Source: an uncultured Actinomycetes bacterium (lineage in GTDB: Bacteria; Actinomycetota; Actinomycetes; S36-B12). Taken from it: a stretch of DNA of 57,069 nucleotides. The DNA is taken from the NCBI GenBank assembly GCA_903832025.1, contig CAIKZY010000162.1, positions 1-57,069 of the forward strand. The letters run 5' to 3'. Made by a program: the position numbers and the translations under genes. Each line of letters starts with the position of its first letter. The first letter of the stretch is position 1. Under the pieces are notes generated by a model. That model was not told where the DNA came from. It was given only the letters and a program-made list of their open reading frames with translations, and did no database searches. Positions 7,104-35,256 of the stretch are shown piece by piece.

Positions 7104-7268
7104 GTGTCGACCCACCGCAGATGGCGAAGATCCGCTTCCCAGCACGGCACAGACGGTACACCGTGGGCGACTGGTCCCAGCGAGACTGGTCAGAGCGCGA
7201 AAACCTGTCCCCACCGTGTCCCGGCGTGAGGTCAGACCAGTGCGTGCGGTGCTGCAGTTGCCCAGGTC

Positions 7269-14623: not shown

Positions 14624-15348
14624 GGTGAGGCGCCATCATTGGCGGATGGCAGCGATTGACCAGCTGCGGCACGAGCCTTCGATTGGGCGTGCCGACGAAC
14701 TTCGGTGAGAAGTTCGCGATGAGCCTGCTCACGGTGCACCCGCCAGCTGTTGTCAGCGTGAAGACGACGATATGTACCCACAGATGGAAGATGTGCAGTT
14801 CGAATACCTGACATCCGAGCCTGTCCCCACCACCGGTACAGCCAGGTGAAGTGTGTGCTGCCTGGATCGAGCTGTCCAAAGCGGTCAAAGGCATCCGACC
14901 GGAACGTCGTGCTGGTGAACATCACTGACTCATGTGCAGGCTGAACCACCAGAGCACCGCTGGCATCAGCGGAGAAATTTGCGGCAAGGCAGGTGGCAGC
15001 GTCCAACTGCGGGTCTTCCTGCAGCAACTGAATTTGCTGCGCTTGCTTGTTCGGCAGCCAGAGATCGTCGGCGTCGAGAAAAGCGATATATGCGCTGTCT
15101 GAAATGCTGATTCCACAATTCATCGCTGGAATCATCCCTGATCCTTGACTGTGTATCACGCGTAGGTTTGGCAGGCACTGACGGATTCGATCGAGCCAGC
15201 TCCCCGAAGGCGCGGCATCGACATCCAACACGACGTACACGACGTCCGGGAGCAACGTCTGTTCCCCGATGCTCTCTACCGCCTGCTCCAGGAATGGTGA
15301 ATCGGGCTGTGAAGCGATCACCACGGTGTACACAGTTCGCGCTCTCAA
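14620..15348 (-). CDS. Glycosyltransferase family 2
   Basis: YTVVIASQPDSPFLEQAVESIGEQT ... LDADD (DxD). 4-nt overlap with the downstream GT4. Confidence 0.8.
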   Translation of the reverse strand: MRARTVYTVVIASQPDSPFLEQAVESIGEQTLLPDVVYVVLDVDAAPSGSWLDRIRQCLPNLRVIHSQGSGMIPAMNCGISISDSAYIAFLDADDLWLPNKQAQQIQLLQEDPQLDAATCLAANFSADASGALVVQPAHESVMFTSTTFRSDAFDRFGQLDPGSTHFTWLYRWWGQARMSGIRTAHLPSVGTYRRLHADNSWRVHREQAHRELLTEVRRHAQSKARAAAGQSLPSANDGASP

Positions 15349-15449: not shown

Positions 15450-15788
15450 CTACGGCGCAGGTGAGCCGGCACCTGCCGCCATGAAGACATATATCCAGCA
15501 TCCGCGTAGGACAACGAGCACCGCAAACGTGCTCACAAGGAGCCACTTGCCAGGCAGAGACCGCTGCAGCGCAGCGGAAAGGCCGGGATCGGGAACGAGT
15601 TCGCGAGCGGTGGAGAGCTGCGGGCCAACGGCAAGAAGGAAGAACGGTGCAATGAGTGAGAGCACTCGGAAGGCCAACGGGTACTGTCGGTCTCGCCAGA
15701 CGATCACTGCTGCCGCGATATAGGCAGTCATCACGACCAGGCCGATCCAGGTGTTCAAAGTAGGTGAGCAAAGGCGGATACGAACCAT
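15450..15788 (-). CDS. Membrane protein fragment; probable C-terminal part of the split GT-C-like gene upstream
   Basis: 112 aa with 3 hydrophobic segments. Overlaps the end of 15755..16582 by 34 nt in another frame. Confidence 0.4.
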   Translation of the reverse strand: MVRIRLCSPTLNTWIGLVVMTAYIAAAVIVWRDRQYPLAFRVLSLIAPFFLLAVGPQLSTARELVPDPGLSAALQRSLPGKWLLVSTFAVLVVLRGCWIYVFMAAGAGSPAP

Positions 15789-16582
15789 CGCCCAGCGTCA
15801 ACCAGCGGTGCCGAAGCCCGATTCCACGCTGACTGTGAGACAACGAATCCATTCCATTGGTGTACACGCAGGGCAATCGCCAGTGGCCATATGACAACGC
15901 CAATTGCCGACAGGCCAATCGCCACTGCTGCACGCCATCGAGGTGTCCTAGCGGGAGAGGGGCGTGCTACCGACACGAGGACGACAATCACCAGCATCAC
16001 GGCGAAGGGGACGAAACTCACCTTCGCCAGGCCCGCGAGCACGACAAATATCCCGGAGAGGACAAAGCGACTTCGAGTAGCCGCCCAGAGACAGCAAAAT
16101 GCCAACGCGGTGAAGACCCCCTCGCTGTATCCCATGAGAAGGACGGGTGTGGCAGGTAGCGCAGACCACAATGCGCTCACGGTCAGGCTTGATGTCGCTC
16201 CCAAAAACGGTCCCAGTGTCACGGTGAGCACTGCAGCCGCTACTGCTCCGCCAATCAAGTTGCTGACTACCAGACTTGGCTCGATCCATCCCGATCCGCC
16301 GACATGCCCGAAAAATCTTCCAATGCTTGGCACGAGCACGGGCCAGGGCAGTGTGCTTTGCTGCGACATGCCTGATGCTGACGTCGGAATGAAGTGAGGC
16401 CAACCATGCACGGCTGCGGACAACAACCAGCCCGAGTCCCAGCCAGTCATCAACTTCCAAATAGAGCTTCCCTTCAGGCCAGCGACTATCGCCACTGTCA
16501 ACAGATCCAGAGCACGACAAGCGAGAAACATCAATGCGCTTAGCCCAGCGAGGTTGAGGCTTTCGCGGAAACGGCCCGTCAT
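15755..16582 (-). CDS. Polytopic membrane protein, PIG-V/mannosyltransferase-like (GT-C) N-terminal part
   Basis: GWDSGWLLSAAVHGWP resembles the WDSxWYxxIAxxGY motif of PIG-V-like GT-C enzymes. Multiple TM segments. Start taken at ATG 16582 (MTGRFRESL); the ORF is open to 16636. Confidence 0.55.
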   Translation of the reverse strand: MTGRFRESLNLAGLSALMFLACRALDLLTVAIVAGLKGSSIWKLMTGWDSGWLLSAAVHGWPHFIPTSASGMSQQSTLPWPVLVPSIGRFFGHVGGSGWIEPSLVVSNLIGGAVAAAVLTVTLGPFLGATSSLTVSALWSALPATPVLLMGYSEGVFTALAFCCLWAATRSRFVLSGIFVVLAGLAKVSFVPFAVMLVIVVLVSVARPSPARTPRWRAAVAIGLSAIGVVIWPLAIALRVHQWNGFVVSQSAWNRASAPLVDAGRWFVSAFAHLL

Positions 16583-17409
16583 CGACTGTGTCTTCACCGG
16601 GTGGTGCCCGTGGTCGGGTAACCGCCTGCCAGGCACGATGGCAGGCTATCAGCGAGCCACATGTGCCTGCGCATTCCCAAGATGCCGCTGGTGCCACCAG
16701 CTATTCCTCCGAGATCACAGATCCTGGACCATCATGCGTGCATCCGGCGAAGGGAACCAGGAACAAGTTGCAGAGCATGCGAGCGCGCGATGACTCGTCG
16801 TGCGAATGTCATGTCCGAAGCATGGAACGCCCTGCTCAGCGCCATGTTCGTGCCAGGGTGCGAAGTTGTTGATTGAAACCGCCATGTGACGCTCCCAACG
16901 TAGAATTGGGGCTATGAGCGTGGACGGCCATCTACTGATGAAGTCAGTCGGTACGACGTTATGGTTCCATGCCGATTGGTCGAGTGGTTCAATGCGCCAG
17001 CGCTGGAACACCTCTTGAGTCAGACGTTGCCACCGCACCCGGTGTTCTTTGCGGTGATCGGTCTGCAAGTGATGTCCTGCGACACCTTTGCGGTCCGTGA
17101 GCCCCAGTGCCCTGCGGTGTGTCACGTCGCAATGCCGGTAGCGGACATGAGCGCGGCTTTGCATCATGAAGTGTCGCTGACGTGGAGTCCCTGCGCGGGT
17201 TTACCTGACACAGGCGAGAACCGGGCTCGATGCAGGCAGGAACTGCGAATGAAACAGTTCTCATGGCGGCGATCGCTTGACGGCTTCCCCGGTGAGGCTG
17301 CGCACACCCACATGCGTGCAGGAGGATGCTTGCTCGTCGGCACCTGCACTCTGACACGACCGCTTTCTTCTGCCCGCAGAAGGATGACCAATGCTCGAGC
17401 AGCCACACG

Positions 17410-18651
17410 ATGATCCCGCGCGCCATGATGCAGCTGCAGTCCGTAATCGCAATTGCGGAGAAATATCGCCGGACGACGGGCCCACTGTCGGTGCTGATAG
17501 TCGGCGATCCGACCGGTCGTATGCGTGATGCGCTGCTCAAAGAGCGCATCACGTGCACGGCCTGTCCCTCACTCATCGAATTGTTGCGCAACGGAAAAGG
17601 TTTGGCTGCCCAGCACGGTTCGCCATCATCCAACCAGGTGGACAGTTCAGAGCAATTCGATCTGGTTCTCGCACTGGATGGCTGGTCTCGGCTGCTTGAC
17701 GTGACGCAGGCGTCCGTGCGGGATGAAGCGCTTGCCTGGCTGGCGGATCACTGTACGTTCATGCTGACCCGAGCAGTGCGGCGCGCAATCGCACCCGACC
17801 TCAATGAGTTCGGACCGTATGACGTGCACTCGATCCTGAGACGATTTGCGTATGTGTCGGAGTTACCGGAAGCTCGCGATGAGGGCGATCCCTTTCCTCC
17901 GCTGCTGATGGCGAGTAACTGGTTCATGCGCGTTGGGCAGGATTGGATTCAGAAAGCGGACTTGGAGCGAATCGGGAATCAAGCTGACGGCCAAGGCGAA
18001 TACTCGGCTCGCACGATAATCCTGACGTCAGGTGCAGTGGTGAAAGTCGACTACGTAAGTCCGGACTATTTTGAACGAAGTCAGGTCATCGGCGAAGCCG
18101 CATTTCTCGCCGGAGCCACTCCTGCCCATCGTCGGGCGCTACAGCTTCCCGAAGTGCGTTACCTCGACCAGGGACGCGCAGTCGTCACGCTAGTCCGAGA
18201 CCAGGTGCCCGGTGATGCGGCACCCGAAATCGATCCCGTCTCCCAAGTGCACGCCGTCGTCGAGGAGGCGCGCCGATACTCGTCGCTCGGGGTGTTTCAC
18301 AACGATCTCCGCCCGTGGAACCTCCTGTGGAACAGCGGTCGGGCCCACTTGATCGACTACGCCGATGCCGCTGACGAAGACCTCGATGTTCGTGACCTTC
18401 CGCAGGTTTTGGCCTTAGCAGGAACATGTGCTGCACTCCTTACCCAGGAGATTCGAGCCGGCGTTCATTTCCATCACGATGTCTTGTCGATATCCGCGCA
18501 AAGCGGGCTACTTCAGCGATGGCCGCTTCCTCGTCAATTTGGCAGCCCATGGCTGCGTCTGTGCGGGGATCAGGTACCCCTGGCATTTCACTCGGACCTG
18601 AATGCAGCCCAGGTGATGCATGAGGTTCTGCGGGTGTGCTGCGATGCCTAG
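17410..18651 (+). CDS. Two-domain protein: N-terminal class-I methyltransferase-like domain plus C-terminal eukaryotic-like/APH-type kinase domain (WbdD-like glycan chain terminator candidate)
   Basis: N-terminal part has VLIVGDPTG (degenerate motif I) and FDLVLALD. C-terminal part has VFHNDLRPWNLLW (HxDxxxxN catalytic loop) and HLIDYADA (DFG-equivalent). Start at ATG 17410; the ORF is open from 17326. Confidence 0.6.
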   Translation: MIPRAMMQLQSVIAIAEKYRRTTGPLSVLIVGDPTGRMRDALLKERITCTACPSLIELLRNGKGLAAQHGSPSSNQVDSSEQFDLVLALDGWSRLLDVTQASVRDEALAWLADHCTFMLTRAVRRAIAPDLNEFGPYDVHSILRRFAYVSELPEARDEGDPFPPLLMASNWFMRVGQDWIQKADLERIGNQADGQGEYSARTIILTSGAVVKVDYVSPDYFERSQVIGEAAFLAGATPAHRRALQLPEVRYLDQGRAVVTLVRDQVPGDAAPEIDPVSQVHAVVEEARRYSSLGVFHNDLRPWNLLWNSGRAHLIDYADAADEDLDVRDLPQVLALAGTCAALLTQEIRAGVHFHHDVLSISAQSGLLQRWPLPRQFGSPWLRLCGDQVPLAFHSDLNAAQVMHEVLRVCCDA

Positions 18652-19771
18652 AACTCCCAGGCCGGCGCGAGCACATTCCGCATTCCTTGTGGGGAGCGAA
18701 ACGCAGAACATCGAGCGGTCCTCAGTACTGTCAGGTGTTCAGCGCGTTGTTCGAGAATCACATGCCAGCATCGCCGACACATTGGGAACTCACGGAGCCT
18801 CGCTCGTTCCGGTGCACACGCGGGGCGGACAGCGCACTGGAGCCTTCAGGAGCAACCCGTACCTGGCCTCGGATGACGTGCTGGATCTACCCCCGTACTC
18901 GCTCTCAGACATTGATGTGTTGATGCTGCTGGATTTGAACACGAATGTGGATTTCAGTGCGATCTTTCGGGAGAAGCGCAAGCGATCGCTACCCGTAGTC
19001 GCTCTGGTCCATGACATCTTGCCGCTGATACACCCGCAGTGGTGGGTCGACGATTCCCACCGAGTGTTTCGACTGTGTGTCCAGCAGGTCCTTGCAGTAG
19101 CCGACCACATCGTTGTTACTTCCGACAAGGTGCGCCAAGATCTCGTTCGCCTTGGATGGAGACACAACGCAGCGATCCACGTCATCGGACTCGGTTCACC
19201 ATTTCGGCGACAGAGGCCTGAACCTGTTGAGGATGGACGGCTTTCGATGCTGTATGTCTCAACAGTTGAGCCTCGCAAGGGCCACGACATCCTGCTGGAC
19301 GCATTCGACATGCTTGTCAACGATGGCGTGGATGTTGACCTGACCCTCATCGGGGCGGAAGGCTGGCTGAGTGAGTCGCTGATCGCCCGAATACGTGCCC
19401 ATCCTGAATTCCAGGGGCGACTGCGGTGGCTCGTCAACGCCAACGATCTCGCCGTTGCGACGATTGCTCGACACTGCTCGATTGGAGTGTTCCCAAGTGC
19501 GGATGAAGGGTTTGGCCTGTTCTTGGAAGAGGGCCTGAGCTACGGATTGAAGATGGTAGTCAGTGACATCCCCGTATTCAGAGAGCGAGCCACCGCCAAT
19601 GTCTGGTTCAGCAAGCGCACCCCCGAAGCGCTAGCAAATGCCATTCGACGAAGTCACGAAAGCGATCAGATTGTTGATCCGGTGCGCACCATTCGAAGCA
19701 TGCGAGATTTTGGGGCCGACCTATCTGACCTGCTTCTTCAGGCACTGGGAGTCGCGCAGACCTCAAAATAA
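18644..19771 (+). CDS. Glycosyltransferase family 4 (paralog of 13511..14623)
   Basis: YVSTVEPRKGHDILLDAF ... PSADEGFGLFLEEGLSYGLKMVV. ATG 18644 overlaps the upstream TAG (ATGccTAG). The N-terminus SAFLVGSE aligns with SACVIGSE of the paralog. Confidence 0.8.
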   Translation: MPRTPRPARAHSAFLVGSETQNIERSSVLSGVQRVVRESHASIADTLGTHGASLVPVHTRGGQRTGAFRSNPYLASDDVLDLPPYSLSDIDVLMLLDLNTNVDFSAIFREKRKRSLPVVALVHDILPLIHPQWWVDDSHRVFRLCVQQVLAVADHIVVTSDKVRQDLVRLGWRHNAAIHVIGLGSPFRRQRPEPVEDGRLSMLYVSTVEPRKGHDILLDAFDMLVNDGVDVDLTLIGAEGWLSESLIARIRAHPEFQGRLRWLVNANDLAVATIARHCSIGVFPSADEGFGLFLEEGLSYGLKMVVSDIPVFRERATANVWFSKRTPEALANAIRRSHESDQIVDPVRTIRSMRDFGADLSDLLLQALGVAQTSK

Positions 19772-19798: not shown

Positions 19799-20233
19799 AT
19801 GGATAGTGAAGTCGGTATGTGGAGCATTCGGGACGACTCTGTTTCAATGGAACGCCTGGATGGAGAGACCATCCTCATCAACTTCGAGACTGGTCAGTAC
19901 TTTAGCTTTCGCGGTCCATCAGCCGATATCCTGTGGCTCGTCCAAGCCGGGGTTGATCCCATGCATTGGCCTGCAACCCTAGGCGAATCATTTGAGCATT
20001 TTTCCTGGACCGACCAAGTGCAAACATCCATCATCGATTTCCTCGACAGCCTCTCCGAATTGGGTGTCATCTCGGCGATCACGGAGATGCACGGTGCATC
20101 GGTAGCGCTTCCAGATGACTATGTGCGCACGGAATGGACGGCCCCTTCGGTGTTTGCCAATGACGACCTTGCGGACCTACTAGTGATCGATCCCATCCAC
20201 GACGCGAGTGAAGATGGATGGCCTCAGTCCTAA
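19799..20233 (+). CDS. PqqD-family (RiPP recognition element-like) protein with a roughly 50-aa C-terminal extension
   Basis: LDGETILINFETGQYFSFRGPSADILWLVQAG and IIDFLDSLSELGVI match the PqqD/RRE pattern (strand-strand-strand, then winged-helix helices). Confidence 0.65.
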   Translation: MDSEVGMWSIRDDSVSMERLDGETILINFETGQYFSFRGPSADILWLVQAGVDPMHWPATLGESFEHFSWTDQVQTSIIDFLDSLSELGVISAITEMHGASVALPDDYVRTEWTAPSVFANDDLADLLVIDPIHDASEDGWPQS

Positions 20234-21284
20234 CCGGCGCCAGGCACGAGGTCACTATTTCGCCAGCCAACTTGTCGATGCTGGGAGTACTCAATCCTCA
20301 GCGTGGTTCGACGCCAGACTTGGCCCGTTCGGACTTCGGATTGGATATCGAACCCAGGATGCCTTGTGCGAACTCATCCTGGGGGCATTCATGCAACAGC
20401 GAAGTGCGAATGCGGAATTTCGGCTTTCGATAGTTCGTGCTCATGAGATGCCCCGGCTCCCGCCGATGGAGTGGGCTTCCCCGTGGACCAATGCCGGTCG
20501 CGTGGTGCCCGAGGAAATCACCTATCCGTATCGTGTCTTCATCGATCGAACGACGGGGATTGCGTACGCACTTGACCAGCAACGTGGTGTTGGCACAGTC
20601 TGGATTCGTCGGAACGGTGAACTGGACCTGCGAAGTTTTCTCACGCCCTTTCGCCTGATCCTCAGCTGGATGAGCAATCTTCGAGACGCAGAAATCGTCC
20701 ATGGGTCCGGTGCAGTGATCAATGGTCAGGGAATGGCCTTCAGCGGTGCCTCGGGATCAGGGAAATCGACCTTGGCGATCGCCTGCGGCATTCTGGGAGA
20801 GCAGGCGATTTCCGATGATTGTCTCCTCCTGTACAAGAACACGATGTTCGCCGTCTATTCACGTGCCAAATTGACCCAACACTCCCTGGCGCTGATCGGT
20901 GGACCGAGCATCCCAACGAGCGCCCTTGCACACTCCCGAGGGGCGAAGGAGTACTTCAGACTTCAGTCGCTGGGTACGGGGTACGTCAGCAGCCACGCAT
21001 TGCATCGGTGGTGCTTTCCGATCATCGACAAACGGTCCGCTGCATATGTGTTAACAAAGCGACGGGCATATCGCATGCTCAGTGTGGATTCCCTGCGGGA
21101 GGTATTCGGTGGCGGAGTCAGGAATCGAATTCGCCTCGCGCATGAGGTCGCCAAGCGCCCGTGCACGCGTCTAATGATCTCAGAGTCCATGCCCGACAAT
21201 CTTGCCTTGTTGCGTGCATTGCCCAGCAGTCAGCCAGGCATGCCGATTGCAGCATCGAACTGGAACGGTGAGCCCGATGAGTAG
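20208..21284 (+). CDS. HPr-kinase-related P-loop protein (HprK C-terminal-domain-like)
   Basis: VHGSGAVINGQGMAFSGASGSGKSTLAIAC parallels the HprK/P motif hHGvlv.v.G.GvLi.G.SG.GKSE.AL. Overlaps the PqqD-like stop by about 20 nt. Confidence 0.7.
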   Translation: MKMDGLSPNRRQARGHYFASQLVDAGSTQSSAWFDARLGPFGLRIGYRTQDALCELILGAFMQQRSANAEFRLSIVRAHEMPRLPPMEWASPWTNAGRVVPEEITYPYRVFIDRTTGIAYALDQQRGVGTVWIRRNGELDLRSFLTPFRLILSWMSNLRDAEIVHGSGAVINGQGMAFSGASGSGKSTLAIACGILGEQAISDDCLLLYKNTMFAVYSRAKLTQHSLALIGGPSIPTSALAHSRGAKEYFRLQSLGTGYVSSHALHRWCFPIIDKRSAAYVLTKRRAYRMLSVDSLREVFGGGVRNRIRLAHEVAKRPCTRLMISESMPDNLALLRALPSSQPGMPIAASNWNGEPDE

Positions 21285-22743
21285 GCCGAATGTGCTCTTG
21301 AGCACAGAAGATGTACTGGCGCTCCGCGCAGCCACATCCAGACCGGAGTCCGCGCTGGCGGCCTGGAAGGAACTGATGTCCAGTGTGGACTTCGATGCCA
21401 TTAATGAGAGCACGCAGCGCATCATGCCATCAATATTTCTCAACGTCCGCGGGCAAAATGACATCCCCGATGTCGCCCGAATGCGAGGTGCCTTCAAGTA
21501 CGCCTGGTCTCGAACGACCGAGATGTTGCACTCGGGTCGTGGGCTGTTTCTGGCACTGAATGAATCCGGAATTGACTACCGGATTCTGAAAGGAGCCGCC
21601 GTTCAGGTTGTGAGCAACCGCCTGGGCGCACGAACAATGGCGGACATCGACATGCTGATCGGTGCCAATGACGTCGAGCGAATGATCGAGATCATGAATG
21701 CCCAAGGATTTCGCCGGAGTATGCACTCTGAGTGCAGCGGCCATTCCAGTCAGTCGCACTACGATGCGATGGACTTCAACTCGGACGGCTGCCATATTGA
21801 TGTTCACGTCGCTCAATACAAGGAACCCAGCGCGCTCCTTCAGCTGATGTTGTCTGTCCCTGCGCTGCACGTGCGCGCAGCAGGAGCGCAACTTCCGCTG
21901 CCTCCTCCCGAATTGCTGCTTCTGCACGCGGCATTCCATGGAGCCCAGGCGGCGGGACCTACCGACTTTGTTCAATCGGTAGTGGACGTCCTGGCACTTG
22001 GCGGGATGGTCGATCACGAGCAACTGGTCGAGCAGGCGAGGCAATCCGGAACGCTGGAGGCGCTCCTGGCCCTAAATGCGGCTACCCAGACGGTGGACGA
22101 TGTGAGCTTACATATCAAGGTTCCGGTGAGCGCGAAGATTCGTGCCAGACTGCAGGCGCAGGTACTTCGCGGCAAAGCGCTGATATCCGAATCAAACTCG
22201 ATGTCTGCACGCATCGCAGAACGTCGTCCAAGTAAGCCGCTCGTGTCACTGATCCGAGATCGATTTCAGGGAAAGACGCGGCTCTACCTGACGTGGCTGC
22301 GTACAGGTCGCTTTGCTGTCACCGAGCGTTTTGTCGTTCGGCTCACCGGCGGCTTCCTTGAAGTGCCGCAGCACCCATGGGTATCCGGAACCACCCTGGT
22401 TGCATTCGGCAACTCGTTGCCAGGAAGCATCGTTGGCTCGACAACAGCCCGTGAAGCACTCGACTGGCGCTTTCGAGTGAGGTTTGCCACGCCGGAGGCC
22501 ATGATCAGGGTCAGGCTTATCTCTACGGCTTTCGACAGGCTGGACGCATATCTGTTTTGTAACGGCCGCGGGGTGGCTCGTGTTATTGCGGGAGATATCT
22601 CGAGCCGGAGTGTGACCATTCGTAATGTTCCAGCCAGTGCTGAGTTCTCGCTGCGGGCATTTTGGGACGTCTGCCCGCTTTGCTATCAGGGATTTGATGA
22701 CTTGCAGGTGCGAATTGATCTCGGGGACGTTGCCGGAGCATGA
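21277..22743 (+). CDS. Nucleotidyltransferase family protein (PF14907 / NTP_transf_5-like)
   Basis: GIDYRILKGAAVQVVSNRLGARTMADIDMLIGANDVERMIEIMNAQGFRR matches the characteristic core of the uncharacterised nucleotidyltransferase family. ATG 21277 overlaps the upstream stop (ATGAgTAG). Confidence 0.65.
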   Translation: MSRPNVLLSTEDVLALRAATSRPESALAAWKELMSSVDFDAINESTQRIMPSIFLNVRGQNDIPDVARMRGAFKYAWSRTTEMLHSGRGLFLALNESGIDYRILKGAAVQVVSNRLGARTMADIDMLIGANDVERMIEIMNAQGFRRSMHSECSGHSSQSHYDAMDFNSDGCHIDVHVAQYKEPSALLQLMLSVPALHVRAAGAQLPLPPPELLLLHAAFHGAQAAGPTDFVQSVVDVLALGGMVDHEQLVEQARQSGTLEALLALNAATQTVDDVSLHIKVPVSAKIRARLQAQVLRGKALISESNSMSARIAERRPSKPLVSLIRDRFQGKTRLYLTWLRTGRFAVTERFVVRLTGGFLEVPQHPWVSGTTLVAFGNSLPGSIVGSTTAREALDWRFRVRFATPEAMIRVRLISTAFDRLDAYLFCNGRGVARVIAGDISSRSVTIRNVPASAEFSLRAFWDVCPLCYQGFDDLQVRIDLGDVAGA

Positions 22744-22750
22744 GCGAACC

Positions 22751-23548
22751 ATGTTGAGCCGGGTTTATCAGAGCCGGAGTTTGGTGTGGGCCTTCATGCG
22801 GCGCGACGTGTCTGTTCGCTATAGAACGAGTGTATTGGGATGGCTCTGGTCTTTGGCTCAGCCTCTGGCCACATTGCTCCTTTTCTTCGTGGTGTTCTAC
22901 TACATCTTCCATGCCCAGGCACCACCATTAGGGAACGGACGTGGATCGTCATACCCGATCTTCATCTTCTGCGGATTGGTCACATGGAACCTGTTTGCCG
23001 GCATGCAACCGGTCTCGATTACGACCATGGAATCCTGCGCGGAATTGCTGGGAAAAGTTCATTTTCCGGGCTGGGCACCAGTCCTCGGAGCCCAGCTGGT
23101 CCAGGCACTCCAGATTCTGCTGGAATTCGTCGTCCTACTTCTTGTGCTGCTGTGCATTGGAAATGTCAGCTGGACCTGGTTGCTGGCAATACCGATCCTC
23201 CTGGGCACGGTGCTGTTCGCCATGGGAATCGGACTGCTGATCTCTGCCCTGAGCGCCCATTTCGGTGACGTGAAGGAAGGAGTCACCACTGCCCTGCTAC
23301 TTCTGTACTTCGCAACGCCCATCATGTATCCCATCAGCATGCTTCATGGCCGCAATGCGGCTCTTTCCTTCGTAGTTCACGCAAATCCCATGTCGTGGTA
23401 CGTCAATGGTGTCCACAATGTGCTGTACTCGCTGGTCGCTCCATCCGTGCCAGTGCTCATCGGCCTACTGGCTGCAGGCGCGCTCACATTCTGGACCGGC
23501 CTGGTGGTCTTCGATCGAGCAAGCAGGGACCTAGTCGAACTTCTGTGA
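22751..23548 (+). CDS. ABC-2 type polysaccharide/teichoic-acid export permease (Wzm/TagG-like)
   Basis: RSLVWAFMRRDVSVRYRTSVLGWLWSLAQPLATLLLFFVVF is the hallmark N-terminal region, followed by 6 TM segments. The ATG at 22751 lies 8 nt after the upstream stop. No adjacent ATPase gene. Confidence 0.85.
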   Translation: MLSRVYQSRSLVWAFMRRDVSVRYRTSVLGWLWSLAQPLATLLLFFVVFYYIFHAQAPPLGNGRGSSYPIFIFCGLVTWNLFAGMQPVSITTMESCAELLGKVHFPGWAPVLGAQLVQALQILLEFVVLLLVLLCIGNVSWTWLLAIPILLGTVLFAMGIGLLISALSAHFGDVKEGVTTALLLLYFATPIMYPISMLHGRNAALSFVVHANPMSWYVNGVHNVLYSLVAPSVPVLIGLLAAGALTFWTGLVVFDRASRDLVELL

Positions 23549-26726: not shown

Positions 26727-27835
26727 GATCGAGCCTGCGCGATAAGCACCTGATCCCACAGCTCTGTCAGTGCATTCGCCTGGACATTCGGCGCCCAGGT
26801 TCGGGCTCGATCGTGGGTACTGCGGGCCGTGTCCTGGAGAAATCCGTCGTCCTGCTGGCAGGCATTGAGCAACTCAGTCAGCTCATGAGAATTCCCGTGG
26901 CGAAACACCATGGACGGATCATTCACCAAAGCGGGAAGCTCACCACTATCACTGACAATCACTGGTCGTCCGGTCAGCATGCCTTCGACGGCCACGCGTC
27001 CCCACTGTTCACGAAAGCGAGGTGTCATTTCCGTCGGCACCACCAGGACGTGGCACCATGACATCAATTTCCACACCGCGTGTGCATCGCCACCGCCGAG
27101 AAACTCAATGCGCTGGTTACAGGTCTCTGCTTGTACCGCGAGCTTCCGAAGATGTCGACCCTCACCCATGATCCGCAGGTGAACCGTGTTCGCAGGGATA
27201 TTGCTGACCGCGGTGATCAGTGTCTGCACGCCCTTTTCCGGCACGAGGCGGCCGCAATACGCAACTCGCAGGTGTCCATCGAATGGCGGCATGCTCGACA
27301 CAGGAAATTCCAGCGGGTCGGGAAGCCTGCTGGCACACAGTGTTGTCGGAGTGCTTGTCGGCAACCCGGCGTCGTGCAAGGCCTTGAGCCCGGTGGAACC
27401 CCAACTGACTGCCCCGGATGCCCGCTGAAGAACGCGTGCGGTGCCAAGCCGTCGTATGCGGTAGTGCAAAGGTGCTGACCGAATGATGTTCTCGGCCGAG
27501 TGAATGACGAACGGTGGCCGCCAGGAGGGAGCAAGTTGTGCGATCAGGGCCCAGGGCTCAGCAACCACATGGATCAGATCAGGTTGGAAATCGTGTATCC
27601 GATCTCGGATTCCATGCCAGACGGTTGATGTTTCTCCAAGGATGGATCGCGCGGGAACAAGATGAATTCGATCGCTCAGATCAGCAGCGCGCTGGCGTAG
27701 CCCAGCCTTGGCGTGTTCAATCTGACTCTTGTTGACAGGCAGGAATAGCTGAGTACTTTCCTGTGCTCGGAGGACCTCAAACCACACGGTGTTGCTCCGT
27801 GCATGTGCATCCTGTCCAAGGATGACGATGCCCAT
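26723..27835 (-). CDS. Glycosyltransferase family 4
   Basis: GRLVPEKGVQTLI ... VPTEMTPRFREQWGRVAVEGMLTGRPVIVSDSGELP. ATGA overlap with the upstream ABC exporter gene. Confidence 0.8.
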   Translation of the reverse strand: MGIVILGQDAHARSNTVWFEVLRAQESTQLFLPVNKSQIEHAKAGLRQRAADLSDRIHLVPARSILGETSTVWHGIRDRIHDFQPDLIHVVAEPWALIAQLAPSWRPPFVIHSAENIIRSAPLHYRIRRLGTARVLQRASGAVSWGSTGLKALHDAGLPTSTPTTLCASRLPDPLEFPVSSMPPFDGHLRVAYCGRLVPEKGVQTLITAVSNIPANTVHLRIMGEGRHLRKLAVQAETCNQRIEFLGGGDAHAVWKLMSWCHVLVVPTEMTPRFREQWGRVAVEGMLTGRPVIVSDSGELPALVNDPSMVFRHGNSHELTELLNACQQDDGFLQDTARSTHDRARTWAPNVQANALTELWDQVLIAQARS

Positions 27836-29712
27836 CAGGACTGGCGTCCTTCGTCGGGCACCAGTCCGAGCAGCTCGGCTTGTCGGTCGAAGGCAGGAAC
27901 CTGCGTACGCACGTGATCGAAGTTCCCGTGCGCCCGGATCGTCCCCTGTTCCAGATACACCACTGCATCAGAATTGCGAACAGTGGCAAGGCGATGCGCG
28001 ATCACGATGGCAGTCACCGTTCCGCTCAGGGCAGCGATGCTCTGGCTGATCGCATGCTCGGTTTCAGCGTCAAGTGCACTTGTTGCCTCATCCAGTACCA
28101 GGACCGACGGTCGAGTGAGCAACCCACGGGCGAGCCCAAGCCGCTGCCGCTGACCACCACTGAGTCGTAATCCGCGGTCTCCGACCAGGGTGTCAAGACC
28201 ATCTGACATCTGACGGACAAAACCATCAGCCTGCGCACGCTCCAGTGACTCCCAGACCTGATCGTCACTGACCTGGCCTCTCGGCAGTGCGAGTGCGACA
28301 TTGTCCCGGATGGTTGCGTTGAAGATCGAAACATGTTGCGGGAGGTATGCGATCTTGCCTGGCCACGTGCTGATCGCCTTCCACGGTGGAAGTCCGCCGA
28401 TGAGCACTCCACCATGCTGTGGGGAGAGCACGCCGATAATCACGTCAGCCAGTGTGGATTTTCCCGCACCTGTCCGGCCAACAATGGCCAACGAGGTACC
28501 TGCAGGAATGGTGAGGCTGATATCTGTGAGCGCCGGCGGACTTTCGGGCTTGTAGGTGAAGTGAACTCCGTCGATGGTCACGTCCGCTCGAAAACCCTGA
28601 TCGCCCGACGGTTCACCTGCCGCCGACTCGTCCGTGACCATCCATGAGGCAGGCAGGGGATCGCGAACAACCTGTGCGAGTTGCCGTGTTCGGGCAGATT
28701 GCGCGATTGAGGATCGAATATTGACCAATTGACCGCTCAGACGAAGCATTGATGGCACCAGCCGGGAACCGGCAGCGAGAAATACAACAAGGGTCGAAAC
28801 GACGTCCACCATGTTGCCGGTTCGCAATTGCAACGCGGCAAGAAGGACAGCGCCAACAACCAGAGCGCAGTCGTACACCAACTTCGGAATTTGGTTGATC
28901 AGTTGTGCAGTTGCCTGCGCCCGAGCTCCGGATTCCAGCACCGTGCTGATTGACGCGAGGTAGGGCTCTCTTCGGTCGAGTGTCCATAACTCACGAAAGG
29001 CATGCAGACCTTCTTGGACTTGCGACAACGTCTGCACGTCGGAAGCTTGGAGGATGGTTCCAGTCCGGGCCGCCCACCGAGACAGCATGAGGTGCATGAC
29101 CCAGCCGACAAGCAGGAAAAACCCAGCCATGCCCAGCGCAGCCGCCGGGGCAAAGAGAAAGATGGTGAAACCTAAGATCACGAGCAGGAATGCATCGCTG
29201 CACACGATCGCAACTGACCCCAGAAGCCCCGTGATCGTAGCCACCGCACCGGAAGTGACGGCGTACACAGTTTCCTGCGGAGTGAGTTGATACACGTCGG
29301 TAATTGGCCTGGACAGCAAGCTACTCAGGAGTCGATTGGATGTCTGGCTTTGCGCTTTGGCGAGGAATTTGTAGTTCTGTCCGATCAGGTACCCGTAGAT
29401 GACCGACTTTGCCAGGAAGAAGACTGCCGCAGCCACCGCCATGAACACGGCAAGATTCGCCGATCCAACATGTTGCAGGCCGACTGCATCGAGTACTGCA
29501 GTCAGTGAGGCCGGAGGACGTCGACCGGCTACAGCAGTCGAGGCAAGCACTCCGACTCCGCCAATCAACAGGACGCCGAGTAAGTCCATGAGGCCCGTGG
29601 CCATCTGTGCGGCGACCACGAGCCAGTAGCGAGCTCTCTCCGCAGGCGTCAGCAGCGCCAAGGAAGCGCGGATCGAAGCCAGGGTGGAACCGCGCGTACT
29701 CGTGGAGGACAT
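27835..29712 (-). CDS. Fused TMD-NBD ABC exporter (MsbA/PglK-like type I exporter)
   Basis: Six N-terminal TM segments. Walker A GRTGAGKSTL, signature LSGGQRQRLGLARGL and Walker B VLVLDEATSALD. Confidence 0.9.
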   Translation of the reverse strand: MSSTSTRGSTLASIRASLALLTPAERARYWLVVAAQMATGLMDLLGVLLIGGVGVLASTAVAGRRPPASLTAVLDAVGLQHVGSANLAVFMAVAAAVFFLAKSVIYGYLIGQNYKFLAKAQSQTSNRLLSSLLSRPITDVYQLTPQETVYAVTSGAVATITGLLGSVAIVCSDAFLLVILGFTIFLFAPAAALGMAGFFLLVGWVMHLMLSRWAARTGTILQASDVQTLSQVQEGLHAFRELWTLDRREPYLASISTVLESGARAQATAQLINQIPKLVYDCALVVGAVLLAALQLRTGNMVDVVSTLVVFLAAGSRLVPSMLRLSGQLVNIRSSIAQSARTRQLAQVVRDPLPASWMVTDESAAGEPSGDQGFRADVTIDGVHFTYKPESPPALTDISLTIPAGTSLAIVGRTGAGKSTLADVIIGVLSPQHGGVLIGGLPPWKAISTWPGKIAYLPQHVSIFNATIRDNVALALPRGQVSDDQVWESLERAQADGFVRQMSDGLDTLVGDRGLRLSGGQRQRLGLARGLLTRPSVLVLDEATSALDAETEHAISQSIAALSGTVTAIVIAHRLATVRNSDAVVYLEQGTIRAHGNFDHVRTQVPAFDRQAELLGLVPDEGRQS

Positions 29713-35238: not shown

Positions 35239-35256
35239 GGCAGGCCGAGGTCCTCC

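What the first reader, a model, noticed from the sequence alone, without database searches (positions are those of the whole stretch)
19799..22743. PqqD-like RRE + HprK-like kinase + PF14907 nucleotidyltransferase trio embedded in a glycan export operon, with no RiPP core machinery
Seen in the sequence: three + strand genes with overlapping stops and starts. They are (i) a PqqD-like protein, (ii) a protein with the HprK C-terminal-type P-loop SGASGSGKSTLAIAC preceded by VHGSGAVINGQG, and (iii) a 489-aa PF14907-like nucleotidyltransferase. The trio is sandwiched between a GT4 gene and a Wzm permease whose ATG is 8 nt after the trio's last stop.

Established knowledge: PqqD-like domains are peptide-leader recognition elements. 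HprK-like kinases phosphorylate the C-terminal Ser of lasso peptides (paeninodin). A paired nucleotidyltransferase extends that phosphate with sugars (pseudomycoidin). As I recall, PGAP/TIGRFAM lists an 'HPr-rel-A system' (HprK-related kinase A plus a PqqD-family chaperone) purely from co-occurrence, with no known substrate or function.

Inference: the window has no lasso cyclase, leader peptidase or obvious precursor. The trio also occupies the slot where a Wzt ATPase/recognition module would normally sit. This may therefore be an uncharacterised system that phospho-glycosylates a peptide or protein acceptor. Alternatively it may recognise and tag a glycan intermediate, coupled to ABC-2 export. 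This is my top candidate for the novel system in this window.
Basis: partly seen in the sequence, partly recalled or inferred. Interest (0 to 1): 0.85.

Follow-up and report, generated by a model that had tools for sequence, protein, structure and literature searches.

The report
Self-leadered RRE with kinase and nucleotidyltransferase
The three genes are real and form the core of a widespread, unstudied enzyme set related to those that add phosphate and sugars to ribosomal peptides. Its peptide-binding protein carries its own "leader" sequence as a tail, which may explain why no separate peptide gene is found.

Summary
Three overlapping + strand genes encode a lasso-type RRE (PqqD fold), an HprK-like P-loop kinase and a PF14907 nucleotidyltransferase. 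They sit between a GT4 gene and a Wzm gene. The window holds no lasso cyclase, leader peptidase or free precursor.

- The genes are not members of the NCBIfam "HPr-rel-A" system.
- The Wzm/Wzt link is not conserved.

The trio's steady partners in the window's actinobacterial relatives are GT2, an ePK/APH-like kinase and GT4, forming a six-gene cassette.

The RRE protein has a 45-residue tail. It carries the lasso/LPP leader motif (W113-x-x-P116-x-V118) and then an invariant D-P-x-H…G-W-P peptide. AlphaFold2 places the motif region at pLDDT above 90.

About 2,470 protein clusters (50% identity) match the whole RRE-plus-tail profile. In 119 of 120 genome hits across about ten phyla the protein is real. 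An HprK-like kinase usually follows it, with GT2 and PF14907 genes nearby. Fusions of RRE-tail to the kinase or to GT4 also exist.

The closest known system is the linear polyphosphorylated peptide (LPP) family (2026) and paeninodin/pseudomycoidin tailoring.

My best reading is an RRE-guided phospho-glycosylation module whose "precursor" is fused to the RRE. The acceptor residue is not identified.

The parts
19799..20233 (+). RRE-tail protein (144 aa). Residues about 8-93 form a lasso-type RRE (PqqD fold); a conserved 45-residue C-terminal tail follows.
   Evidence: The family profile hits TbiB1 at 2e-8, plus PbaB1, TfuB1 and LppB. The AF2 model has pLDDT 84.5 and superposes on TbiB1/TfuB1 with TM-score 0.82-0.84. 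There are 91 close homologs of 131-167 aa and 2,473 clusters at E<=1e-10.
20108..20152 (+). Leader-like segment L104-P-x-D-Y-x-R-x-x-W113-x-x-P116-x-V118. It matches the [Y/W]xxPx[L/V/I/F/A] motif that lasso and LPP RREs bind.
   Evidence: The motif is present at the same position in 88 of 91 close homologs. In 145 wider-family representatives the aromatic is F/W/Y in 143, P is present in 138, and the next hydrophobic position is L/I/F/V/M. AF2 gives pLDDT 90-93 for residues 101-120, with a beta-bridge at 120-121. The motif definition comes from PMC13381572.
20174..20224 (+). Invariant tail peptide D126-L-L-V-I-D131-P132-I-H134-D-x4-G140-W141-P142. Its last codons overlap the kinase start.
   Evidence: D131, P132, H134, G140, W141 and P142 are invariant in alignments A3, A6 and A7. 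145 of 149 HMM-found representatives carry the motif. AF2 pLDDT here is about 50, with a short helix at 123-129.
20214..21284 (+). HprK-like P-loop kinase (356 aa; alternative GTG start at 20208). It has a family-specific N-terminal domain of about 150 aa.
   Evidence: Scores are PF07475 2.4e-4 and TIGR04355 7e-8, both below threshold. The family profile hits HPrK/P structures at 4.7e-6. H163, G178-T186 and D201-D202 are invariant.
21277..22743 (+). PF14907 nucleotidyltransferase-fold enzyme (488 aa). It has a helical middle part and a C-terminal beta-sandwich (roughly 22384-22731).
   Evidence: PF14907 scores 4.8e-24. G..R..D-x-D, the DVH motif and C-domain motifs are conserved. The AF2 model has pLDDT 80.4. 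Foldseek finds MenT1, ANT(2'')-Ia, LnuA and FKRP for the catalytic part, and weak CBM36/CBM35 matches for the beta-sandwich.
17407..18651 (+). ePK/APH/RIO-like kinase of the actinobacterial cassette (the ORF opens at 17326).
   Evidence: Scores are PF01636 3e-5 and RIO1 2e-3. WbdD, RIO and LegK4 are only weak PDB hits (E 0.2-0.8). Homologs sit at the same position in 9 loci (E 2e-100 to 8e-13).
18620..19771 (+). GT4 glycosyltransferase immediately upstream of the RRE gene.
   Evidence: Pfam assigns Glycos_transf_1 and GT4-conflict. A GT4 gene sits directly upstream of the RRE gene in 10 related loci. A natural GT4 + RRE-tail fusion exists (P0146).
16904..17410 (+). Truncated, diverged remnant of the cassette GT2 gene.
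   Evidence: It matches only positions 2-141 of the 224-position cassette GT2 profile, at 24.6 bits. The gene is intact in L001, L006-L008, L010 and L012-L014.
15453..16645 (-). Homolog of a conserved cassette-associated protein of about 370 aa with no known family. It is split by a frameshift near 15773-15797.
   Evidence: tblastn gives two adjacent pieces in different frames. Profile positions 13-268 and 269-374 fall on two separate ORFs.
13511..15348 (-). Divergent GT4 (13511-14623) and GT2 (14620-15348) pair that accompanies the cassette.
   Evidence: Pfam assignments are. They are strong matches to the cassette GT4 and GT2 profiles (386 and 261 bits). The same pair occurs in L001, L007, L008 and L010.
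22751..23548 (+). Wzm-type ABC-2 permease. It is context, not a conserved partner.
   Evidence: PF01061 scores 9.6e-20. It has an ortholog in L008 at 65% identity. Wzm-like genes occur near the RRE gene in only 3 of 120 wider-family loci.
27835..29712 (-). MsbA-like fused TMD-NBD ABC exporter (625 aa). It may be the counterpart of LppD and is variably present.
   Evidence: It has ABC_tran at residues 395-545 and a hydrophobic N-terminal half. It is 43% identical to the gene that follows Wzm in L008. L010 has an ABC_membrane + ABC_tran gene beside the cassette. MsbA-like hits occur in 19 of 120 wider loci.

Best explanation
**Shown.**
- The trio is the conserved core of a widespread, uncharacterised gene set: an RRE protein with a special tail, an HprK-like kinase, a PF14907 enzyme and glycosyltransferases.
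- In the window's lineage this is a six-gene cassette: GT2, ePK-like kinase, GT4, RRE-tail, HprK-like kinase, PF14907.
- It is an evolutionary sibling of the RRE/HprK/NTP-transferase module of LPP and paeninodin-type RiPPs.
- ORF1 is a lasso-type RRE. Its own C-terminal tail carries the leader motif WxxPxV and then an invariant D-P-x-H...G-W-P peptide.

**Inferred mechanism.**
1. The RRE clamps its own tail in the leader-binding cleft. Recognition element and "precursor" are therefore one polypeptide, and no separate precursor, leader peptidase or cyclase is needed.
2. The docked RRE-tail presents the conserved C-terminal peptide to the HprK-like kinase, which is translationally coupled and in some organisms fused.
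3. It also presents the peptide to the PF14907 enzyme. The one tested relative of that enzyme (PsmN) is needed to put hexose on phosphoserine phosphate.
4. The neighbouring GT2/GT4 enzymes and the second kinase extend or decorate what is built.
5. The product would be a phospho-glycosylated carrier protein or primer that feeds or decorates the cell-wall glycan made by the surrounding locus.

The modified residue is not identified.
For: **RRE identity.** The profile and the predicted fold both match lasso RREs.

**Cis leader.**
- The motif is present in 88 of 91 close homologs and about 95% of wider-family members, at a fixed distance from the domain.
- F81, the Phe that divides the leader cleft in PbaB1 and LppB, is invariant among the 50 close homologs and 78% F in the wider family; the PbaB1/LppB role of this Phe is.
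- AF2 gives pLDDT 90-93 for residues 101-120. A beta-bridge falls on the residues just after Px[V], where crystal leaders pair with the RRE sheet.
- In tandem-RRE proteins a leader-like motif follows several of the RRE copies: both copies in P0145 and the first two of three in P0140.
- The strongest RRE-tail covariation pairs are 88-120 and 45-121. The 77-113 pair links the aromatic residue to the position equivalent to PbaB1 Q79. This is suggestive only.

**Functional linkage.**
- The RRE and kinase genes overlap in all the close relatives examined; the one exception is L012, whose kinase is frameshifted.
- The kinase is immediately downstream in 73 of 97 wider-family loci. GT2 occurs in 80 of 103 loci and PF14907 in 49 of 103, within +-4 kb.
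- Fusions exist: 3xRRE + kinase, and GT4 + RRE-tail.

**Self-containment.** L012 carries the six genes alone. No conserved small-ORF family was found in 131 loci.

**Enzyme precedent.** LppK polyphosphorylates one Ser of an RRE-bound precursor, and PsmN is required for hexose on the phosphate.
Against: - No Ser or Thr is conserved in the tail. Position 136 is S, G, D or T. The position 9 residues before D-P is T/S in 52% and D/E in 32%, and looks like a helix N-cap. LppK accepts only Ser.
- The tail is far more conserved than a typical RiPP core. That fits a docking element better than a substrate.
- I could not inspect model coordinates, so cis docking rests on pLDDT, the DSSP pattern and sequence logic.
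- No protease or exporter is consistently linked to the cassette.
- In this window two accessory genes are damaged, so the cassette may not be fully active here.
- The Asp triad of the PF14907 enzyme is degenerate in L001, L007 and L012.
Confidence: 0.4

Rival explanations
1. Adaptor model. The RRE-tail protein is never modified. With its cleft permanently filled by its own tail, it acts as a scaffold or activator subunit. Its D-P-x-H...G-W-P peptide docks the HprK-like kinase and the PF14907 enzyme. These enzymes then phosphorylate a glycan or lipid-linked intermediate made by the adjacent glycosyltransferases and add a sugar-phosphate or phospho-alcohol group to it.
For: - GT2 genes are almost always adjacent, and the cassette often lies inside polysaccharide loci.
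- The tail is hyper-conserved and lacks any hydroxyl acceptor.
- Structural neighbours of the PF14907 model include FKRP, an NTase-fold enzyme solved with CMP. From my own knowledge it transfers ribitol-phosphate to glycans.
- The C-terminal beta-sandwich weakly resembles CBM35/CBM36.
- The second kinase is ePK-like, with WbdD among its weak hits.
Against: - RRE domains are known only as peptide binders.
- The characterised relatives of the kinase and the PF14907 enzyme act on peptides.
- The CBM and WbdD similarities are weak (E 0.02-0.8).
- L012 has no polysaccharide locus around it.
Confidence: 0.3
2. Classical RiPP tailoring module (LPP-like or lasso-like) whose precursor peptide, and perhaps peptidase, are encoded elsewhere in the genome. 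The tail would only autoinhibit the RRE until the real leader displaces it.
For: - The three enzymes are those of LPP and paeninodin clusters.
- An MsbA-like exporter lies 4 kb away.
- Short RiPP precursors are easy to miss.
Against: - The window has no precursor, cyclase, B2 or SpI peptidase. Gaps are at most 329 nt and no intergenic ORF carries the motif.
- The precomputed Pfam lists for the 10-kb flanks of the related loci show none of these genes either.
- No conserved small-ORF family was found in 131 loci.
- The MsbA-like gene is present in only 19 of 120 wider loci.
- Popov et al. describe LPP and paeninodins as restricted to Bacillota.
Confidence: 0.12
3. One reading: the trio replaces a Wzt ATPase/recognition module. 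It recognises or tags the finished glycan so that the ABC-2 permease can export it.
For: - The Wzm ATG lies 8 nt after the trio.
- No Wzt-type NBD gene is present in the window.
- L008 has the same trio-Wzm order.
Against: - Wzm is next to the trio in the window and in only 3 of the 11 related loci searched, and in 3 of 120 wider loci.
- L014 has a normal Wzm-Wzt(Wzt_C) pair as well as the cassette.
- L001, L007 and L012 have no transporter nearby.
- None of the three proteins has an ABC NBD.
Confidence: 0.05
4. In this genome the cassette is a decaying remnant with no current function.
For: - The cassette GT2 is a 24.6-bit truncated remnant, and the conserved gene of about 370 aa is frameshifted.
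- L012 shows a frameshifted kinase.
- Some relatives have lost NTase catalytic Asp residues.
Against: - ORF1, ORF2, ORF3, the ePK-like kinase and the GT4 are full-length, with every family-invariant residue intact.
- The start-stop overlaps are preserved.
- The frameshift could be an assembly error.
Confidence: 0.1

Closest known systems
Linear polyphosphorylated peptide (LPP) clusters of Bacillota (Popov et al., Nat Commun 2026, PMC13381572)
   Same: [quoted passage not shown]
- They have no cyclase.
- They are embedded in polysaccharide loci rich in glycosyltransferases.
- The RRE binds a [Y/W]xxPx[V/L] motif.
   Different: - LPP has a separate 35-200 aa precursor (YxxPxVLxHQxIxFETxxS) and an SpI-type leader peptidase. 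Neither is present here.
- Here the leader-like motif is fused to the RRE and is followed by an invariant D-P-x-H...G-W-P peptide with no conserved Ser.
- The exporter is only sporadic here.
- GT2 (and GT4 plus an ePK-like kinase in actinobacteria) are core partners here.
- The distribution spans about ten phyla rather than Bacillota only.
Paeninodin/pseudomycoidin lasso-peptide tailoring (HprK-like kinase PadeK/PsmK and NTP-transferase PsmN)
   Same: The same two enzyme families sit next to a B1-type RRE. PsmK phosphorylates a Ser, and PsmN (D134/D136 needed) is required for hexose on the phosphate.
   Different: - No lasso cyclase, B2 protease or precursor is present here.
- The acceptor here is unknown.
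- The PF14907 protein here has an extra helical region and a beta-sandwich domain.
NCBIfam HPr-rel-A system (TIGR04352 HprK-related kinase A + TIGR04353 PqqD-family chaperone), GAK-type HprK-related kinase B (TIGR04355) and SynChlorMet cassette ScmC/ScmD
   Same: They pair an HprK-like kinase with a PqqD-like protein and are defined by co-occurrence. They give weak sequence hits here. Homologs of the kinase carry a faint or weak PF27840 (ScmC) mark.
   Different: - All scores are far below the curated cut-offs (15.8-36 bits against 200).
- ORF1 does not hit TIGR04353.
- None of these models covers the tail.
Lasso B1 proteins TbiB1, TfuB1 and PbaB1 (solved RRE-leader complexes)
   Same: They share the winged-helix RRE fold (TM-score 0.82-0.84). 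The cleft Phe is conserved. The bound motif has the same spacing.
   Different: In those systems the leader is a separate peptide handed to a B2 protease. Here the motif is on the same chain, about 20 residues after the domain.
FKRP/LicD-type NTase-fold phosphotransferases and ANT(2'')/MenT nucleotidyltransferases
   Same: These are the fold neighbours of the PF14907 catalytic domain.
   Different: The resemblance is in fold only (11-18% identity). The chemistry of PF14907 enzymes is not established.

Membership tests
PqqD/RRE fold (PF05402; lasso B1 type) | Sequence match to the PqqD profile at Pfam's gathering score | tested here: not met
   The window protein scores 14.1 bits against 23.4 (E=0.06), although it covers the whole profile. 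Fourteen of the 91 close homologs carry a precomputed PF05402 hit.
PqqD/RRE fold (PF05402; lasso B1 type) | Winged-helix RRE fold: a three-stranded sheet plus three helices, with a cleft-dividing Phe | tested here: met
   The family profile hits TbiB1 (2e-8), PbaB1 (2.6e-5) and TfuB1 (3e-4). Foldseek gives TM-score 0.82-0.84 to TbiB1 and TfuB1. F81 is invariant among the 50 close homologs.
HPr kinase C-terminal domain family (PF07475) | Profile match, plus the catalytic His, the P-loop GxSGxGKS[ET] and the DD motif | tested here: inconclusive
   The window protein scores 21.1 bits against 33.3. Many homologs carry PF07475. The family profile's best PDB hits are HPrK/P (4.7e-6) over the His/P-loop/DD stretch. 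H163, G178-T186 and D201-D202 are invariant. Kinase activity was not tested.
PF14907 (NTP_transf_5) | Profile match above the gathering score; NTase Gly...Asp-x-Asp motif | tested here: met
   It scores 85.7 bits against 31.2. G117, R119, D123-I-D125 and the DVH motif are present. The predicted fold matches NTase-fold proteins.
NCBIfam HPr-rel-A system (TIGR04352 + TIGR04353) | Kinase and PqqD-like protein both reach the curated cut-offs | tested here: not met
   ORF2 scores 15.8 bits against 200. ORF1 gives no hit. Wider-family kinases score 22-36 bits.
LPP RiPP family (Popov et al. 2026) | Discrete RRE + HprK-like kinase + NTP-transferase | tested here: met
LPP RiPP family (Popov et al. 2026) | Archaeal-type SpI (SipW-like) leader peptidase in the cluster | tested here: not met
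   No peptidase family appears among the window ORFs scanned. There is no room for an unannotated gene between 10.6 and 36.3 kb. None appears in the Pfam lists of the related loci.
LPP RiPP family (Popov et al. 2026) | Separate precursor of 35-200 aa with N-terminal YxxPxVLxHQxIxFETxxS | tested here: not met
   No such ORF is present. The only [W]xxPxV motif lies in the RRE protein's own tail.
LPP RiPP family (Popov et al. 2026) | MsbA-like exporter | tested here: inconclusive
   One is present 4 kb away on the other strand and in L008 and L010. It occurs in only 19 of 120 wider loci.
Lasso peptide cluster | Asn-synthase-like macrolactam cyclase (C) and transglutaminase-like B2 protease | tested here: not met
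   Neither was found in the window or in the related loci (13, 14, 21-23, 33, 50-52).
ABC-transporter-dependent glycan export (Wzm/Wzt) | Wzm permease paired with a Wzt NBD | tested here: not met
   Wzm is present. No separate Wzt NBD is present in the window. The only ABC_tran domain belongs to the fused MsbA-like protein.
WbdD-like chain terminator kinase | ePK-fold kinase domain homologous to WbdD, usually with a methyltransferase and a coiled coil | tested here: inconclusive
   The APH and RIO profiles give weak hits. WbdD is a PDB hit at only E=0.7. No methyltransferase domain was detected.
Known anti-phage defence systems (PADLOC) | Match to any PADLOC model | tested here: not met
   No significant hit for six proteins; the only match is E=0.0097 for the ePK-like kinase.

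The most novel reading that the evidence does not exclude
The RRE-tail proteins form a large, unrecognised class in which a RiPP recognition element is permanently loaded with its own leader and presents an invariant D-P-x-H...G-W-P peptide.

The protein would be a self-primed carrier. A phosphate-linked glycan is built on it by the HprK-like kinase, the PF14907 enzyme and the GTs. Alternatively, the invariant Asp-Pro bond is cleaved or activated to couple the protein or peptide to a glycan.

If so, this would be a protein-primed or peptide-anchored route of glycan assembly or decoration in many bacterial phyla. It would also give PF14907 and the "orphan" HprK-like kinases a natural substrate.
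Probability: 0.3. Interest if true: 0.85.

Novelty: new variant of a known kind. Interest (0 to 1): 0.68.

Why it matters
- RREs are the standard handle for RiPP genome mining, on the assumption that a separate precursor exists. A family of roughly 2,400 protein clusters in which the RRE carries its own leader would change how such "orphan RRE" loci are read.
- It could explain why HprK-like kinase and PF14907 pairs keep turning up in polysaccharide loci without peptides.
- It offers a defined, soluble candidate substrate (a 144-aa protein) for working out the still unknown chemistry of PF14907 enzymes. LppN could not be activated heterologously.
- It also points to a possible link between peptide-guided modification and cell-envelope glycan synthesis.

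Tried and rejected
- **Profile-guided locus search with the kinase alignment.** It was swamped by P-loop matches and returned one distant relative. I replaced it with hand-made degenerate DNA patterns.
- **The search for related loci with the diverse RRE alignment.** It failed because no stretch was conserved enough.
- **Searching PDB chains with the tail alone.** It gave only a chance match.
- **The tail as a classical Ser acceptor.** This is not supported. No conserved Ser or Thr exists, neither position 136 nor the C-terminal residue. The T/S-or-D/E position 9 residues before D-P is best read as a helix N-cap.
- **All-against-all clustering of ORFs from 131 loci.** It found no conserved small-ORF family. 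Single linkage merged the overlapping RRE, kinase and GT2 ORFs, so it is a coarse test.
- **Mutual information between RRE and tail columns.** It gave some pairs in sensible places, but subfamily structure dominates. I treat it as suggestive only.
- **HPr-rel-A, GAK and SynChlorMet membership.** Rejected on curated cut-offs.
- **Defence system.** Rejected.
- **Literature searches** for ScmC, PF14907, HPr-rel-A and PqqD + HPr kinase + exopolysaccharide found nothing on this family beyond the lasso and LPP papers.
- **Model coordinates** are not exposed by the tools, so I could not measure tail-to-cleft contacts.

Full report
**1. The observation**

- ORF1 runs from 19799 to 20233 (144 aa).
- ORF2 runs from 20208 (GTG) or 20214 (ATG) to 21284. 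It overlaps the end of ORF1 by 20-26 nt.
- ORF3 begins at ATG 21277, inside ATGAGTAG, which also holds the ORF2 stop. It ends at 22743 (488 aa).
- The next gene, an ABC-2 permease, starts at 22751.
- The GT4 gene upstream ends at 19771.

Both quoted kinase peptides are present.

PF14907 is a clear Pfam match (4.8e-24). The other two assignments fall below the curated thresholds when the window proteins are scored alone: PF07475 scores 21.1 bits against 33.3, and PF05402 scores 14.1 against 23.4.

Family profiles settle both.
- A 22-sequence alignment of the kinase has HPrK/P crystal structures as its best PDB matches (4.7e-6). The match covers the His / P-loop / Asp-Asp stretch, and those residues are invariant.
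- A 50-sequence alignment of ORF1 hits the lasso RREs TbiB1 (2e-8), PbaB1 and TfuB1, and LppB more weakly (E 0.012).
- The AlphaFold2 model of ORF1 (pLDDT 84.5) superposes on TbiB1 and TfuB1 with TM-score 0.82-0.84.

**2. The surroundings in the window**

The window comes from an uncultured actinobacterium. Its seryl-tRNA synthetase is 70-72% identical over its full length to those of lake actinobacterial and Nanopelagicales MAGs. GC content is about 60%.

The trio lies in a cell-wall glycan locus. The locus contains:
- rmlB- and rmlD-like genes;
- several GT2 and GT4 genes;
- a WecG/TagA-type transferase and a Bac_transf initiating transferase;
- a Wzy_C-like membrane protein;
- a methyltransferase and a sulfotransferase.

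I found no lasso cyclase, B2 protease or signal peptidase among the 47 window ORFs scanned against Pfam. Gaps between genes from 10.6 to 36.3 kb are at most 329 nt. None holds an ORF with a leader motif.

The only ABC ATPase gene found is a 625-aa protein with a hydrophobic N-terminal half, that is, an MsbA-like fused exporter. It lies 4 kb downstream on the other strand. No Wzt-type ATPase gene is present.

**3. What travels with the trio**

Close relatives of the kinase are rare. There are 29 clusters in the large protein collection. Only three representative genomes carry its signature motif, all actinobacterial MAGs.

Their contigs show a recurring six-gene order: GT2, an ePK/APH/RIO-like kinase of about 400 aa, GT4, the RRE protein, the HprK-like kinase and the PF14907 enzyme.
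- The order is strict in L001, L006, L007, L008, L010, L012 and L013, and in L014 and L009 with rearrangements.
- The contig carrying P0006, for which no DNA was returned, has the same genes in a different order.
- A divergent GT4-GT2 pair and a protein of about 370 aa with no known family often accompany it.

In L012 the six genes stand alone between unrelated genes. Wzm is adjacent only in the window and L008, and lies within the retrieved flanks of L004 and L014. L014 also has a normal Wzm-Wzt pair.

In the window itself the cassette GT2 is a truncated, diverged remnant (16904-17410). The gene of about 370 aa is split by a frameshift near 15.78 kb. The five genes from the ePK-like kinase to PF14907 are intact.

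**4. The tail of the RRE protein**

Ordinary lasso B1 proteins are 90-120 residues long. ORF1 and all 91 of its close homologs are 131-167 aa, apart from one 101-aa fragment. The extra C-terminal 45 residues are better conserved than the RRE domain.

The tail reads L-P-x-D-Y-x-R-x-x-W113-x-x-P116-x-V118, and then A-N-D-D-L-A-D-L-L-V-I-D131-P132-I-H134-D-x4-G140-W141-P142.

The first part is the [Y/W]xxPx[L/V/I/F/A] motif through which lasso and LPP leaders bind their RREs, as defined crystallographically (PMC13381572). It is present in 88 of 91 close homologs.

AlphaFold2 gives residues 101-120 pLDDT of 90-93. It places a beta-bridge at 120-121, the residues right after P-x-V. In the crystal complexes the leader extends the RRE sheet at that point. 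The last 24 residues have pLDDT around 50 with one short helix, as expected for a peptide that folds on a partner.

F81, the counterpart of the Phe that divides the leader cleft in PbaB1 and LppB, is invariant among the 50 close homologs and 78% conserved in the wider family.

In natural tandem-RRE proteins a [F/Y]xxPx[L] motif follows several of the RRE copies.

A mutual-information scan puts the strongest RRE-tail pairs at 88-120 and 45-121. It also links the aromatic residue to position 77, the equivalent of PbaB1 Q79. Subfamily structure dominates that analysis, so I count it only as suggestive.

I could not read model coordinates. Cis docking is therefore well supported but not demonstrated.

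**5. Size of the family**

An exhaustive HMMER search with the RRE-tail profile against 1.84 billion representative proteins gave 2,473 proteins at E<=1e-10.
- A lone RRE such as TbiB1 would score only around E=1e-4 on that scale.
- The best 150 hits all align across the tail.
- 145 of the 149 sequences I examined carry D-P-[IV]-H-[DE]-x4-G-W-P.

The wider consensus is [F/W/Y]-x-x-P-x-[L/I/F/V]-x-x-[Y/F/H]-[T/S/D/E]-D-[M/L]-Q-[D/E]-L-L-L-[L/I/V]-D-P-[I/V]-H-[D/E]-x4-G-W-P.

They include Alphaproteobacteria (Bradyrhizobium, Xanthobacter, Roseobacter, Sphingosinicella), Cyanobacteria, Acidobacteriota, Verrucomicrobiota, Planctomycetota, Chloroflexota, Bacteroidota, Actinomycetota and others.

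Of these places, 119 encode a genuine RRE-tail protein. The neighbourhood counts are as follows:

| Feature | Loci |
|---|---|
| HprK-like kinase immediately downstream | 73 of 97 with enough sequence |
| GT2 genes within +-4 kb | 80 of 103 |
| PF14907 within +-4 kb | 49 of 103 |
| Kinase, GT2 and PF14907 all present | 41 of 103 |

The ePK-like kinase was found in none of these wider loci and the cassette GT4 in only 2, so both belong essentially to the actinobacterial branch. MsbA-like genes occur in 19 of 120 loci and Wzm-like genes in 3 of 120, so both are sporadic.

Fusion proteins exist. One type has three RREs plus an HprK-like kinase (about 785 aa). Another has a GT4 followed by RRE-tail (509 aa).

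NCBIfam models cover only the RRE domain and give sub-threshold scores. The kinases reach 22-36 bits on TIGR04352 against a cut-off of 200. This is therefore not the curated HPr-rel-A system.

**6. The PF14907 protein**

Its AlphaFold2 model (pLDDT 80.4) has three parts: an NTase-fold domain, a helical region and a C-terminal beta-sandwich.
- Foldseek neighbours of the catalytic part are MenT1, ANT(2'')-Ia, LnuA and FKRP.
- The beta-sandwich gives weak matches to CBM36 and CBM35 (E 0.02-0.04).
- The C-domain carries conserved motifs: DWRFR, NG, EFSLR and CxxC.
- In three relatives (L001, L007, L012) the catalytic Asp residues are partly lost.

**7. Comparison with what is known**

Three facts come from the literature.
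- HprK-like kinases of paeninodin-type clusters phosphorylate a Ser of the precursor.
- PsmN, a PF14907-type enzyme, is required for adding one or two hexoses to that phosphate (PMC6993621).
- In 2026 Popov et al. described LPP clusters in Bacillota.

LPP clusters contain an SpI-type peptidase, a discrete RRE (LppB), the kinase LppK, the NTP-transferase LppN, an MsbA-like pump and a 35-200 aa precursor with a YxxPxV leader. They are often embedded in capsule loci.
- LppK polyphosphorylates Ser3 of the core.
- LppN was inactive in the heterologous host.
- LppB was insoluble without its leader.

The present system shares the RRE, the kinase and the NTP-transferase. In this window it also shares an MsbA-like pump and the glycan context. 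It lacks the peptidase and the free precursor, and the leader motif is fused to the RRE.

My full-text searches found no paper on this arrangement.

**8. How it most likely works**

Shown:
- the fold and family of the three proteins;
- the conserved tail with a leader-type motif;
- the tight genomic and physical (fusion) coupling of RRE-tail, kinase, GT and PF14907.

Inferred: the RRE binds its own tail and presents the invariant C-terminal peptide to the kinase and the PF14907 enzyme. The protein thereby takes the place of the precursor. The glycosyltransferases and the second kinase build on what is made.

The weak point is the acceptor. No Ser or Thr is conserved in the tail. The only nearly conserved hydroxyl residue in the whole protein is S36, in the strand that pairs with the tail (83% Ser).

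I therefore give the "fused precursor/carrier" model 0.4. The [quoted passage not shown] model gets 0.3. A precursor encoded elsewhere gets 0.12. The Wzt-replacement idea gets 0.05. Local decay, at 0.1, is a non-exclusive caveat.

An untested thought from my own knowledge concerns the invariant Asp-Pro followed by His. It recalls the self-cleaving Asp-Pro sites of mucin GDPH, of inter-alpha-inhibitor DPHF and of the FrpC self-processing module. Those sites create a reactive Asp that becomes ester- or isopeptide-linked to a glycan or protein.

**9. Verdict**

The finding is real, and more interesting than a stray RiPP remnant.

It is a new variant of a known kind, namely RRE-guided phosphorylation and glycosylation. 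Its defining feature, a self-leadered RRE with an invariant terminal peptide, appears in none of the family libraries or papers I could search. It occurs in thousands of protein clusters across bacterial phyla.

Noticed in passing
window 15453-16645 (-): This is a homolog of a conserved cassette-associated protein of about 370 aa with no Pfam family. It is split into two ORFs by a frameshift near 15773-15797, so it is either a pseudogene or an assembly error.
   Followed up: partly
window 16904-17410 (+): A truncated and strongly diverged remnant of the cassette GT2 gene sits just upstream of the ePK-like kinase. The gene is intact in related loci.
   Followed up: partly
window 22751-23548 (+) and 27835-29712 (-): The Wzm-type ABC-2 permease has no Wzt ATPase gene anywhere in the window. 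The only ABC ATPase gene found is a fused MsbA-like exporter. In L008 the orthologs of these two genes are adjacent, which is an unusual pairing.
   Followed up: partly
window 23721-24899 (-): An ATP-grasp enzyme (best Pfam match ATPgrasp_Ter, also D-Ala-D-Ala-ligase-like) lies between Wzm and the WecG/TagA gene. No ATP-grasp gene appears in the Pfam lists of the related cassette loci. It might add an amino acid to the glycan.
   Followed up: no
window 20208-20233; also L001, L006-L008, L010, L013, L014: The last 7-10 codons of the RRE tail overlap the first codons of the kinase (conserved N-terminus M-D/A-G-L/P-S/R) in another frame in the close relatives examined (not in L012, whose kinase is frameshifted). 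The two proteins are therefore translationally coupled, and this stretch is under a double constraint.
   Followed up: partly
P0138, P0142, P0143, P0150, P0174 (about 785-850 aa); P0146 (509 aa); P0140, P0145 and others: Natural fusions occur in the wider family: three RRE copies plus an HprK-like kinase, GT4 plus RRE-tail, and two or three tandem RREs. Only one copy per protein keeps the D-P-x-H...G-W-P peptide.
   Followed up: partly
L001:11151-12488, L007:11085-12509, L012:11480-12964; L012:10206-11490: In these relatives the PF14907 enzyme has lost one or more of the catalytic Asp residues. In L012 the kinase is also frameshifted, which suggests that the cassette decays in some lineages.
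   Followed up: no
window 19799-20233, residues D131-P132 and H134: The only absolutely invariant residues of the whole protein family are D-P-x-H and G-W-P in the tail. Asp-Pro followed by His recalls known self-cleaving, cross-linking Asp-Pro sites (from my own knowledge; untested here).
   Followed up: no
window 34264-36264 (-), 41072-42001 (-), 5034-7214 (-): Further glycan-decorating genes lie in the window: a sulfotransferase, a GT25, a GT11 (fucosyltransferase-like) and an AT3-SGNH O-acyltransferase. Together they suggest a heavily decorated wall polysaccharide.
   Followed up: no
L060 (labelled Klebsiella pneumoniae MAG) and L040 (labelled Akkermansia muciniphila MAG): Contigs filed under these species carry a typical RRE-tail/kinase/GT2 locus. 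This may reflect mis-binning and was not checked.
   Followed up: no
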